Source: Leucoraja ocellata
Lineage: Eukaryota
Reading direction: 5' to 3'
Length of the DNA: 64,000 bases
Assembly: GCA_036785375.1 (NCBI GenBank)
Contig: JAWMAR010000065.1
Location: 4,960,001 to 5,024,000 of the forward strand
Each line of letters begins with the position of its first letter. Within the stretch, counting starts at the first letter, position 1. This document shows positions 39,001 to 42,000 of this stretch, piece by piece. The position numbers are program-made.

Positions 39001-42000
39001 TTCAATCAGCCAAATTACCATATTGAGTGATTAAGCAACAAAATATAATTGAGCCCTCTTAATGGGAACACCCGCACAGAGAACAAAATGTTTCCTTTGC
39101 CCAACTATGACTAAGAAATCTTGAGTGACAATCAATTGCATATTGGAAGCATCAGAAACCAAGGCATTAATTGATCTTTAACAGGTTTTGCCTTACAAGA
39201 GGAGATTTCGGAATTATTTCCTTATATTTGTCAGAAACGCATACACCAAAGTCAAGGTGAAGCCTGATGAGCCACGATCGAGGTTAAAATGGTGAAACTG
39301 CTACCTACGACATCCGTCCCTCTCTTCAAGGCATGGAGCCATTTCAGATTAGCAAGAATGAGCTAAAAAACAAAACAAAAAACAACATTCCTAAAAACTA
39401 ATATTCTTGCCATCAAAGTAATCCCAAAATTGGGATTAAAATCAGCACTCAAATGCTCCCTCGCAAATATCAAGATGGTTTCACGGGTGTATGTTCGTGG
39501 ACTGAAAATAATTTATTCCCAGATTTCAACATAACTGTAGTGATGGGGTGGTGGTGGGGAAAACAATTGGTGCAAAAACACTAACACTTTGCAGGAAAAA
39601 TTAAAACCGCAAGTTGGATGTTGGTTTTGATATAATAAACACAAAATTTGACGTGGTTAACAATTTTAGTTCATGTCCCAACTGAGGCAAATTCATACAA
39701 TCTCAAAAATGCTGTCTTGTCTCTCCTAGCTTGGACACCAACAAGTTGCAACATATATAATTGATACTCAAACCAATTCACACGACTGCTTCACATTTAC
39801 TGTAAAAAGTCCCGCTGTGGACTTCACATCAGTGCAATTGTTATTCAAATGATAGTCAATACCATCAATGCCATTAACGTGAAATACAACCAGAATATAA
39901 AAGTGTTTTGTGGCTTAATTACATTGGCAGTGGGTAGGCGCGGGAAGTACAGTGAACATTTATCAGGGAAAAAAATATATAAAATGTCAGCCTTAAAATA
40001 CTCATTTTATTTGTTCTGGTGGTATGTTCAAAACATCTGGCACTCATTTTTGTTCATTGCAGGCAAAAGACAGCCCACAGCAGTGAAACACACACACACA
40101 CACCTCAATGTATTTACATTTGAAAAATAAAATTAGGTTTGCTTTTAATCGAAGGAGAACACATTATCAAAACCTATGTCAGTGTTTGGGTATGTTCTAA
40201 AATATAATTGAATGGAAGATTTTTGATACAACCCCACAGAGCAGTAACACACACCAAAATCTCCAAAAACCTCAAAAATTAGGTTTTCCTACAAAACTCA
40301 AAAGAAAGCTTCGGAAATGCTCCGGTCATACTCTTATTTTTAATTAAATAATATTAAGCAATGTCTCACAAGGATCGAAATGAACACAAAAACATTTGAA
40401 AACAACTTGCTGTCTATGATTCTTCAAATACCCATTTACATCTGTGGTGCGCACTGCTTCTAATAATTTATTTAAACTATTCTTTTTCTGTTCAAATCCT
40501 CAGTGCAATTTTGAAGAGGATCACAGACGCTGTATCAGTCTAAAAGGGAGCAATTACTCCATAGTGTTTCAGCTGCGTTCTGCGACCCGAAAATGTAAAG
40601 GACTTAAAAATGAAAGTATTTTATTTTTCACGATCCAACACATGTCTCCAATTTGCAAAGAGTTAATTAAGAAACCCATCCTCCTTATCTAAATGACATT
40701 TAGATAGTAAAAGGAGTACGGTCTCTTTCACATTTGGTTTTATTCATGATTTACATACTGTTGCATCGAAAGCTTTGACAATGTAACCACGTTAAGAAGC
40801 TCTCTCAAACCATACGAGTATATTTCAAATCAATTTTAAAAGTACAATTTAACTAATTGGAAGCATGACAGTGGAATCTCAGAATTAATTAGGATCCTAA
40901 AATGTAAATTTTGCACTAAAATTTGCAAAACATCTCGAACTAGACAGCTATCAAGAAAAAAGATCAGCATCGAGATGGTTAAAACAACTTTCCTAATGCA
41001 AACCCAATGTTATGTTGCCTACAATTGTTTTTTTCTTCTTTTTTTTTGTTCCTTCTTCACAGAAGAAATTCTTATGAAAGCAGTGTTACAAAGGTCATAG
41101 TTTCAAGTGTTAGATAGAAGGTCGCTACCTGACCACCTCTTAACCATAGTGACTGGCCTTATCACAAGCCCATCGGGTGAAATAAAATATAACCGTGCAC
41201 TGTAGCATACAGAAACTTACCCAGTTGTTTAGATTGAGGTGCCAGCAACCAAACTGATGGAATAAGGAGAGCCCAGAGGCTAACGTTCCTCCTTTATTGT
41301 TCCCTTCTTCCATTCCCAGCAAAATTGCATCCCTCGGGTACATGCCGCTTTGTCTTCTGTTGTCTCTTAACCTCTACAACTTTTCCCCCCCCTTTCTCTC
41401 TTGCCTTGGTGCCGACTGCGTTTTTGTTTCTTCCTGCTTTTTTAGCGTCTTTTTTTTTAAAGTACTAAAAAAAGATGTCTCAAAAGATCAAGAGCTTCCC
41501 AGTTCTGTGGCCTGGTGTTTTTAGAACCAACATCCTCATTCAAGTTTGCCGTTGGTTGCATCTTAGTCCGGGTGCAATCCTGTACCTGCTGTACAGCAGG
41601 GACCAAAATTTAGGACACAAATGGAAACAGATCACTGCATCAAAATGCTCACTTAGGAATGAGCAAGACCGCACACACGGGTATAACCTCTTGCGTACTA
41701 TTTATTTTCTTTTCAAAGCCTACAACTCTCCCAGGATTACCAAAATGACAATGCTGCAACTCTATATGGAAAGGTATCAATAAGAGCAGGGGGGAAGAGA
41801 CAAGCAGTGGTTAAGGGAGCATGATCAACAAACTGTAGCATGCAGTCACATCTGTGGGGATGTCAAATCCCTCACGCTGAAGTTCTGGGGGGGAGAGCTG
41901 TGAGAAAGCTCTATTTCTTGTCACAGTGACACAAATATATACATGCAATATATCATGCACACACGCACACATACGCAGAAATACAAATACATATAAAAAC

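What the first reader, a model, noticed from the sequence alone, without database searches (positions are those of the whole stretch)
41221..41343. Coding alternative first exon giving TCF7L2 a 41-aa N-terminus without the beta-catenin-binding domain
Seen: ATG (41343), 41 uninterrupted codons (second Met at codon 11), then TGG|GTAAGT exactly on a codon boundary. Exon 6 starts in phase 0, giving ...[15 protein letters not shown]. Upstream lies purine-rich 5'UTR-like sequence. Known: an intron-5 promoter activated by VAX2 produces dominant-negative Tcf7l2 from alternative first exons in mouse. Inference: this is such an exon, with its own peptide that may carry an uncharacterised function.
Basis: partly seen in the sequence, partly recalled or inferred. 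Interest (0 to 1): 0.7.

Follow-up and report, generated by a model that had tools for sequence, protein, structure and literature searches.

The report
Conserved alternative first exon of skate TCF7L2
This is a real, already annotated alternative first exon of the little skate TCF7L2 gene, and its 41-residue leader, which replaces the beta-catenin-binding end of the protein, is kept at the same length from skates to mammals.

Summary
On the minus strand an ATG at 41343 opens 41 codons that end TGG|GTAAGT at 41221. The exon beginning SNKVPVVQ starts in phase 0 at 30674.

An ORF like this is not rare by chance: 3 of 53 GTRAGT sites in the window have one. Outside evidence settles it.

- **Already annotated:** the peptide is 100% identical to the start of NCBI's [quoted passage not shown]. 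The window is therefore little skate, not human.
- **Conserved:** 11 of 60 named non-primate TCF7L2 records begin with a homologous leader of exactly 41 residues, 61-78% identical. In 9 of the 11 it is joined directly to SNKVPVVQ. They come from carp, platypus, chicken, squamates, rodents and a mustelid.
- **Wider search:** a library-wide scan gave 22 further full-length matches, unnamed and not fetched.
- **Known kind:** it matches the intron-5-promoter short (dominant-negative) TCF7L2 described in mouse.

The exon and isoform class are already known. What remains open is whether the leader peptide has a function of its own. I could not test transcription, the start site, translation, VAX2 control or dN/dS.

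The parts
41221..41343 (-). Coding part of the alternative first exon: ATG plus 40 codons, ending in phase 0 (41-residue leader MYPRD...NLNNW)
   Evidence: 100% identical to residues 1-41 of NCBI isoform X18 of Leucoraja erinacea. Homologous 41-residue leaders in 11 named vertebrate records.
41215..41220 (-). 5' splice site GTAAGT
   Evidence: One lizard record (P0062) reads V-S straight after W41, which is what read-through of a GTn-AGy donor would give.
41344..41470 (-). Purine-rich putative 5' UTR. The transcription start is unknown, so the upper limit is arbitrary.
   Evidence: There is an in-frame TAG 10 codons upstream of the ATG. No polypyrimidine tract lies upstream, so an acceptor there is unlikely (read). 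No repeat copy elsewhere in the window.
30542..30674 (-). Exon 6 of TCF7L2 in the mouse numbering (SNKVPVVQ...DPKT + G). Acceptor cag|TCT in phase 0, donor G|GTAGGT.
   Evidence: Pfam CTNNB1_binding, E 5.1e-19, profile positions 148-191.
17804..17906 (-). Next exon ([14 protein letters not shown]...GWLVPQ). A second possible donor lies 12 nt upstream (last base 17816).
17107..17193 (-). Exon QGQPVYPITTGGFRHPYPTALTVNASMS
8997..9122 (-). Exon [10 protein letters not shown]...GSLNN
8552..8714 (-). Exon with the first half of the HMG box ([18 protein letters not shown]...ILGRR)
   Evidence: PF00505 is precomputed for P0002.
7749..7856 (-). Exon with the second half of the HMG box ([36 protein letters not shown])
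7378..7426 (-). Exon with the basic stretch GKRKKRKREKQAGETN
6523..6595 (-). C-clamp exon, version a (LSAPKKCRARFGLDQQNNWCGPC), used in isoform X18
6173..6245 (-). C-clamp exon, version b ([23 protein letters not shown]). Same length as version a and not used in X18.
   Evidence: The same alternative is seen in other species' records.
5430..5487 (-). 58-nt exon (NWASYQLQARSEETFIFRR) used in isoform X18. The last exon lies beyond the window start.

Best explanation
The window is part of the TCF7L2 gene of the little skate (Leucoraja erinacea, or a very close relative), on the minus strand. Positions 41343-41221 are the coding end of an alternative first exon inside the long intron upstream of the SNKVPVVQ exon (intron 5 in the mouse numbering).

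How it most likely works:
- Transcription starts at an internal promoter just upstream. This is inferred; the start site was not seen.
- The exon splices from its GTAAGT donor to the phase-0 acceptor at 30674. The sequence shows this, and NCBI's model uses the same junction.
- Translation starts at the ATG at 41343. This is inferred from conservation.
- The product carries a 41-residue leader in place of everything encoded by exons 1-5, including the beta-catenin-binding end. It keeps the central region, the HMG box, the basic stretch and the C-clamp.
- Such a protein can occupy TCF sites but cannot recruit beta-catenin. It would therefore act as a repressor or competitor, or as a beta-catenin-independent factor, as described for mouse short (dn/S) TCF7L2.

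The leader is an ancient, length-invariant peptide shared by cartilaginous fish, a teleost, a monotreme, a bird, squamates and placental mammals. This suggests it is translated and under constraint. Its own role is unknown.
For: - **Database identity:** the 41-residue peptide is 100% identical over 100% of its length to the N-terminus of 'transcription factor 7-like 2 isoform X18 [Leucoraja erinacea]' (482 aa). Every exon of that record that lies in the window maps at 100% identity within the exon limits.
- **Splice signals and phase:**
- **No beta-catenin-binding part:** 0 Pfam families for the leader; the next exon matches profile positions 148-191 of 222.
- **Conservation in named records:** I fetched 60 of the 120 listed hits to the exon-6 peptide. 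Of these, 11 start with a homologous leader of exactly 41 residues, and 9 of the 11 join directly to SNKVPVVQ. Identity to skate is 25-32 of 41. In the 12-sequence alignment 17 of 41 positions are invariant, including M1, Y2, P3, R4 and W41.
- **Library-wide scan:** 23 hits at E<=0.001, of which 22 cover query residues 1-41 at 54-78% identity and 12 of those 22 start at residue 1 of the hit.
- **Conservation stops at the exon edges, in the few cases visible:** the python record's 10 extra upstream residues (MTKSGENKAV) do not resemble the skate upstream frame (RLRDNRRQSG). Read-through after W41 agrees only in V-S.
- **Replacements are milder than random:** mean BLOSUM62 is -0.15 against -0.55 +/- 0.23 for random single-base non-synonymous changes at the same codons; 457 of 10000 simulations reached the observed value. 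19 of 369 single-base changes would create a stop, yet none is seen.
- **Literature, passages read:** mouse Tcf7l2 has an alternative promoter in intron 5 giving truncated dominant-negative forms. At least 10 alternative 5' exons are used in mouse brain, and deleting them removes the short protein. The short isoform is restricted to diencephalon and dorsal midbrain.
- **Size:** a 35 kDa band in mouse thalamus fits a short-tailed leader-bearing record, guinea pig P0063, 318 aa, 35.5 kDa.
Against: - I saw no transcript, CAGE, ribosome-profiling or peptide evidence for skate. NCBI's X18 is a computed model and its supporting evidence was not visible to me.
- The ORF pattern alone is within chance (3 of 53 sites), and the frame stays open 26 codons into the intron.
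- The conservation evidence comes from annotated proteins. Lineages where the frame is broken would not appear, so the sample is biased towards open frames.
- No DNA of other vertebrates was available. dN/dS could not be computed, and constraint at the DNA level (promoter, UTR or enhancer) cannot be separated cleanly from protein-level constraint.
- The BLOSUM test is only marginal (about 0.046) and its sequences are phylogenetically related.
- 5 of the 16 short records have other, unrelated leaders, so this is not the only first exon in use.
- The fold prediction of the leader is of low confidence (mean pLDDT 64) and shows no convincing domain.
Confidence: 0.85

Rival explanations
1. The exon is real and is a first exon, but the 41 codons are not translated, or their product does not matter. 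The conservation would reflect DNA-level constraint on a promoter, 5' UTR or enhancer, and the short protein would start elsewhere.
For: No protein-level evidence was available. dN/dS could not be computed. The replacement test is only marginal (457 of 10000). The skate frame stays open beyond the exon. The block 41000-43500 is a unique, slightly GC-richer stretch, as conserved non-coding blocks often are. The fold of the leader is of low confidence.
Against: The length is exactly 41 codons in all 12 aligned sequences, with no indel and no stop, although 19 of 369 single-base changes give a stop. M1 is invariant and residues 2-4 are invariant. The SNKVPVVQ exon contains no Met, and the next Met in P0002 is at about residue 147. 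Starting there would give a protein roughly 145 residues shorter than the leader-bearing form, which fits the 35 kDa mouse band less well than a 318-aa leader-bearing form (35.5 kDa). Similarity stops at the ATG and after the donor in the few records that extend beyond them.
Confidence: 0.1
2. [quoted passage not shown] The ATG would then be incidental.
For: Mammalian records do contain a different insert between ...AHIV and SNKVPVVQ (for example P0057, P0059, P0090, P0123). Nagalski 2013 mentions a candidate 'exon 5b'. Exon 5 is outside the window, so its splicing could not be examined.
Against: There is an in-frame TAG 10 codons upstream of the ATG. The sequence upstream is purine-rich with no polypyrimidine tract. 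All 11 orthologous records start at or just before this Met, and none has exons 1-5 in front of it. The mammalian insert is unrelated in sequence.
Confidence: 0.03
3. It is a chance ORF next to a chance donor, picked up as an artefact by the gene predictor.
For: 3 of 53 GTRAGT sites in the window end a phase-0 ATG ORF of 41 codons or more.
Against: Homologous leaders of identical length occur in 11 named records from six vertebrate groups, and there are 22 library-wide matches.
Confidence: 0.02

Closest known systems
NCBI predicted protein 'transcription factor 7-like 2 isoform X18 [Leucoraja erinacea]'
   Same: Identical. Residues 1-41 are the finding, W41 is joined to SNKVPVVQ, and all further exons that lie in the window map at 100% identity.
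   Different: Nothing differs. It is a computed model, and I could not see what transcript evidence supports it.
[quoted passage not shown]
   Same: Alternative first exon(s) upstream of exon 6. [quoted passage not shown] Rodent records (Peromyscus, Cricetulus, Cavia, Marmota) carry the homologous 41-residue leader.
   Different: Mouse brain uses at least 10 alternative 5' exons. I could not establish which of them, or which of Vacik's exons, is the orthologue of this one. No mouse record with the leader was among those I fetched. Expression domain, VAX2 dependence and repressor activity are untested in skate.
N-terminally truncated LEF1 and TCF7 isoforms from internal promoters
   Same: The same logic applies: an internal promoter removes the beta-catenin-binding end and gives a dominant-negative factor (passages).
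   Different: These are different genes and introns (intron 2 for Lef1). Whether they have a conserved leader peptide was not tested here.
Cassette insert between exons 5 and 6 in mammalian TCF7L2 records (..AHIV-QSPLPCCTQGH...-SNKV)
   Same: It lies in the same intron and is joined to the same acceptor.
   Different: It is an internal exon read through from exon 5, is unrelated in sequence, and has no start codon role.

Membership tests
Short (dn/S) TCF7L2 isoform from the intron-5 internal promoter | The first exon lies in the intron directly upstream of the SNKVPVVQ exon (exon 6) | tested here: met
   The exon at 41343-41221 is 10.5 kb upstream of the acceptor at 30674, on the same strand. 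A motif scan found no exon-5-like peptide anywhere in the window. Exon 5 therefore lies beyond 64000 and the intron exceeds 33 kb.
Short (dn/S) TCF7L2 isoform from the intron-5 internal promoter | Splices directly and in frame to exon 6 | tested here: met
   Donor TGG|GTAAGT and acceptor cag|TCT are both in phase 0. NCBI's X18 uses the same junction, as do 9 of 11 orthologous records. No RNA reads were available.
Short (dn/S) TCF7L2 isoform from the intron-5 internal promoter | The product lacks the beta-catenin-binding N-terminus | tested here: met
   The leader has 0 Pfam families. Exon 6 covers only profile positions 148-191 of CTNNB1_binding. The leader sequence is unrelated to the MPQLN... 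start of the 35 canonical records.
Short (dn/S) TCF7L2 isoform from the intron-5 internal promoter | The product keeps the HMG box DNA-binding domain | tested here: met
   The HMG-box exons are at 8714-8552 and 7856-7749. PF00505 is precomputed for P0002.
Short (dn/S) TCF7L2 isoform from the intron-5 internal promoter | Transcription initiates at its own promoter | not testable with these tools
   No CAGE, RACE or RNA-seq data were available. The only indirect evidence is the absence of an acceptor-like tract, an upstream in-frame stop, and orthologous models that start here.
Short (dn/S) TCF7L2 isoform from the intron-5 internal promoter | Activated by VAX2 | not testable with these tools
   Vacik 2011 is not held. 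I saw one second-hand sentence. Two homeodomain-core motifs lie at 42201 and 42759, with no control, so they are not evidence.
Short (dn/S) TCF7L2 isoform from the intron-5 internal promoter | Represses or competes with beta-catenin/TCF transcription | not testable with these tools
   This needs a reporter assay. It has been shown for the mouse form (passages).
Vertebrate 'MYPRD' leader exon of TCF7L2 (defined here from named records) | A 41-residue leader, M-Y-P-R at the start, W at the end, joined to SNKVPVVQ | tested here: met
   Alignment A1 has 12 sequences and 17 invariant positions, with 61-78% identity to skate.

The most novel reading that the evidence does not exclude
The 41-residue leader may be more than a by-product of using an internal promoter. 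It may be a functional module kept at exactly the same length for the whole history of jawed vertebrates. It could be a partner-binding, localisation or stability element that gives short TCF7L2 a specific activity beyond the mere loss of beta-catenin binding. That would bear on why short and long forms behave as partly redundant rather than simply antagonistic in the embryonic mouse thalamus (abstract and passages). My searches of the held literature found no description of this peptide. However, Vacik 2011 and all supplements could not be read.
Probability: 0.35. Interest if true: 0.55.

Novelty: already known. Interest (0 to 1): 0.3.

Why it matters
The finding shows that the internal-promoter short form of TCF7L2, studied so far in mouse, is much older than mammals. 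Its main coding first exon is present, with the same length, start and splice phase, in a cartilaginous fish. This dates the short-isoform arrangement to the base of jawed vertebrates.

It also points to an unstudied 41-residue peptide with 17 invariant positions as a candidate functional element. Practically, the leader gives an isoform-specific handle for work on the brain-specific short isoform: an epitope, a start-codon knock-in, or a morpholino or CRISPR target. The gene model itself adds nothing new, because it is already in RefSeq.

Tried and rejected
- **Word-index searches with the leader:** the 'longer' search gave only the skate record itself (1 of 6 candidates). The 'near' search gave nothing. 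Because clusters are shown by one representative, these blanks say little.
- **Cluster listing for P0002:** the query could not be made because the database was switched off. The 34 members of its cluster stayed unseen.
- **Vacik 2011:** not held, by DOI or by PMC id. Exon names 1b-e, the VAX2 sites and any conservation figure in that paper are unchecked. Supplements are closed.
- **Rfam scan of the window:** 0 matches.
- **Bacterial-type promoter/terminator scan:** irrelevant for a vertebrate gene and disregarded.
- **CpG and GC profile:** no CpG island at the exon (observed/expected 0.27-0.65 over 41000-43500).
- **Repeat origin:** the region 40900-42600 has no other copy in the window, so exonisation of a repeat is not supported.
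- **Fold of the leader with a 12-row alignment:** two helices at mean pLDDT 64 and pTM 0.28. This is too weak to use, so no fold search was run.
- **Search for the leader's first five letters in papers:** one unrelated hit.
- **Joined exon model:** I did not search or fold one. Searches went exon by exon (for the leader; 10, 31 for exon 6). The only spliced sequence used was NCBI's own record P0002, for mapping onto the window.
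Full report
**1. The observation**

On the minus strand the window reads ...aagcggc ATG TAC CCG AGG ... AAC AAC TGG | gtaagt. The ATG is at 41343-41341 and the last codon ends at 41221. Translation gives 41 residues, MYPRDAILLGMEEGNNKGGTLASGLSLFHQFGCWHLNLNNW, with a second Met at position 11. The 130 or so bases upstream are purine-rich.

At 30674 there is a good acceptor, ttcctgtttttcttttggcag|TCT, opening an exon that reads [16 protein letters not shown]... in phase 0. That exon runs to 30542, with donor G|GTAGGT.

**2. Is it more than chance?**

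Taken alone, it is not.
- The stop-to-stop frame is 41140-41373, 77 codons. It continues 26 codons into the intron and 10 codons upstream of the ATG.
- Of 53 GTRAGT sites on both strands of the window, 18 end a phase-0 ATG-initiated frame of any length, 6 end one of 20 codons or more, and 3 (this one included) end one of 41 codons or more.
- A reader scanning 33 kb of intron could therefore meet such a pattern by accident. The case rests on outside evidence.

**3. What organism and gene**

A word-index search of the leader against longer proteins gave one hit among 6 candidates. It is 'transcription factor 7-like 2 isoform X18 [Leucoraja erinacea]', 482 aa, 100% identical over 100% of the query, from a 46-Mb contig. 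Its sequence begins with the 41 residues followed directly by SNKVPVVQ.

Mapping that record onto the window with tblastn places its successive exons on the minus strand at:
- 41343-41221
- 30674-30542
- 17906-17804
- 17193-17107
- 9122-8997
- 8714-8552
- 7856-7749
- 7426-7378
- 6595-6523
- 5487-5430

All match at 100% identity within the exon limits. An unused alternative C-clamp exon lies at 6245-6173, and the last exon is beyond the window start.

The window also carries two copies of a Tc1/mariner-type element and gave no Rfam match. I therefore take the window to be little skate (or a very close relative), not human. The restrictions on human contigs did not come into play for the window itself.

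The only spliced sequence used was NCBI's own record.

**4. The product lacks the beta-catenin-binding end**

The leader matches no Pfam family. The SNKVPVVQ exon matches only positions 148-191 of the 222-position CTNNB1_binding profile (E 5.1e-19). A motif scan found no exon-5-like peptide in the window. Exons 1-5 therefore lie beyond position 64000, and the intron holding this exon is longer than 33 kb. The HMG-box exons and the C-clamp exons are downstream and in the model.

**5.

*Library-wide scan.* A HMMER scan of the leader against 1.84 billion cluster representatives gave 23 hits at E<=0.001.
- 22 of the 23 align over query residues 1-41, at 54-78% identity.
- 12 of those 22 begin at residue 1 of the hit.
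- The remaining hit (P0010, 13 stretches) looks like a repetitive protein.
I did not fetch or use them, apart from P0014, which names as a carp protein. Only the table's numbers are used here.

*Named records.* To reach named records I searched the exon-6 peptide alone. 3826 of 3827 candidates passed and the best 120 were listed. I fetched 60 of those 120, all with a non-primate organism name. The unnamed rows, the primate rows and some further named rows were left. Classified by what precedes SNKVPVVQ:
- 35 start with the canonical MPQLN... exon 1.
- 9 start elsewhere but contain exon 5.
- 5 have other short leaders: Fukomys, Varanus, Crotalus, Limosa, Apteryx.
- 11 start with a homologue of the skate leader.

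*The 11 leader-bearing records.* They come from platypus, chicken, the lizards Hemicordylus and Phrynosoma, the python Liasis, guinea pig, Peromyscus, Cricetulus, Marmota, Mustela and carp.
- In all 11 the homologous stretch is exactly 41 residues.
- In 9 of the 11 it is followed directly by SNKVPVVQ.
- Phrynosoma has 7 extra residues beginning V-S, and carp has 25 extra residues. Both look like imperfect gene models.
- Identity to skate is 25-32 of 41.
- In the 12-sequence alignment 17 positions are invariant: M1 Y2 P3 R4 G10 E12 K17 G19 G24 S26 L27 G32 W34 L36 L38 N39 W41. M11 is kept in 11 of 12.

Frame, start, length and splice phase are thus conserved from a cartilaginous fish to mammals.

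**6. Coding or merely conserved DNA?**

I could not compute dN/dS, because no vertebrate DNA collection was at hand. The indirect evidence favours a translated leader.
- There is no indel and no stop in any of the 12 sequences, although 19 of 369 possible single-base changes of the skate exon create a stop.
- Residues 2-4 are invariant.
- The 39 distinct replacements are milder than random single-base non-synonymous changes at the same codons. Mean BLOSUM62 is -0.15 against -0.55 +/- 0.23, and 457 of 10000 simulations reached the observed value.
- In the few records that extend past the exon, similarity stops at the ATG (python MTKSGENKAV against skate RLRDNRRQSG) and two residues after the donor.
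- A 318-aa leader-bearing record has a calculated mass of 35.5 kDa. This is close to the 35 kDa band assigned to dominant-negative TCF7L2 in mouse thalamus (passage read).

Against this:
- The sample is made of annotated proteins and is therefore biased towards open frames.
- The replacement test is marginal and ignores phylogeny.
- There are no protein data.
- AlphaFold2 with the 12-row alignment gave two helices (residues 3-15 and 19-39) at mean pLDDT 64 and pTM 0.28. That is too weak to build on.

**7. First exon or cassette?**

The in-frame TAG 10 codons upstream, the purine-rich sequence with no polypyrimidine tract, and the fact that none of the 11 orthologous records has exons 1-5 in front of the leader all argue for a first exon. 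The insert seen between exons 5 and 6 in several mammalian records (QSPLPCC...) is unrelated. The start site itself is unknown. There is no CpG island, and the region has no other copy in the window.

**8. Comparison with what is known**

From passages I read:
- **Nagalski 2013 (PMC3825142):** Lef1 and Tcf7l2 have alternative promoters in introns 2 and 5 that give truncated, dominant-negative forms. The truncated Tcf7l2 mRNA is about 70% of the total in embryonic thalamus.
- **Qi 2023 (PMC10208975):** about half of mouse brain Tcf7l2 transcripts start at one of at least 10 alternative 'exon 5'' first exons. These are neuron-tissue specific. Deleting them removes the short protein and impairs pup vocalisation.
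- **Gabriel 2025 (bioRxiv):** the short isoform comes from an internal promoter in intron 5, is expressed in diencephalon and dorsal midbrain, and is redundant with the long form in embryonic thalamus.
- **VAX2 link:** Vacik 2011, the source of this link, is not held. I saw only one second-hand sentence on VAX2 and a truncated TCF7L2.

The skate exon fits this kind in position, splice partner and product. I could not say which mouse exon is its orthologue. Rodent records carry the leader, so a mouse orthologue is expected.

In the held literature I found no description of the leader peptide or of its conservation. This does not cover Vacik 2011 or any supplement.

**9. Verdict**

The finding is a true, conserved, coding alternative first exon of TCF7L2. 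It belongs to the known intron-5-promoter short isoform and is already present in RefSeq for this species, so as a feature it is already known. The modestly interesting residue is the leader itself: 41 residues of fixed length with 17 invariant positions across jawed vertebrates and no assigned function.

Transcription, start site, translation, VAX2 control and repressor activity in skate are inferred, not shown.

Noticed in passing
window 57656-58851 and 11511-12721: Two copies of a Tc1/mariner-type element in opposite orientation, 85.7% identical over 1234 bases. The ORF fragment 58568-58780 (-) matches Pfam HTH_Tnp_Tc3_2 (E 7.4e-14). The frames are broken by stops.
   Followed up: partly
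window 6595-6523 and 6245-6173 (-): Two alternative C-clamp exons of identical length (73 nt): LSAPKKCRARFGLDQQNNWCGPC and [23 protein letters not shown]. The same pair of alternatives is seen in tetrapod records, so it is also conserved to skate.
   Followed up: partly
window 17816/17804 (-): The exon ending ...GWLVPQ has a second possible donor 12 nt upstream (G|GTTAGT), which would drop LVPQ. A ray record (P0107) and several mammalian records lack LVPQ. This matches the 12-nt alternative 5' splice site described for mouse exon 7.
   Followed up: partly
window 5487-5430 (-): A 58-nt exon (NWASYQLQARSEETFIFRR) is used in skate isoform X18 between the C-clamp exon and the last exon. It was not seen in any of the 60 records from other species that I read. 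Its length is not a multiple of three, so it must pair with a different acceptor or frame in the last exon, which lies outside the window.
   Followed up: no
window 63250-63965: A GC-rich stretch that matches its own reverse complement (67% over 788 bases), with long open frames on both strands. Tandem Repeats Finder found no tandem array there.
   Followed up: partly
window 60644-60831 and 20665-20843; also 60378-60482, 61020-61124, 62553-62637, 57157-57242, 35591-35650: Short interspersed repeat families, 77-92% identical between copies and probably SINE-like. None overlaps the alternative first exon.
   Followed up: no
window 27297-27563 (-) and 59099-59597 (-): ORF fragments that look like remnants of retroelement proteins (for example ...MEFNPNKCEVVHFGKSN...). 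They had no Pfam match at E<=0.01.
   Followed up: partly
window 41000-43500: A unique, non-repeated block with higher G+C (0.41-0.47) than its flanks (0.33-0.38), surrounding and upstream of the alternative first exon. It is a candidate for the internal promoter region. It contains two homeodomain-core motifs at 42201 and 42759, which were not controlled against chance.
   Followed up: partly
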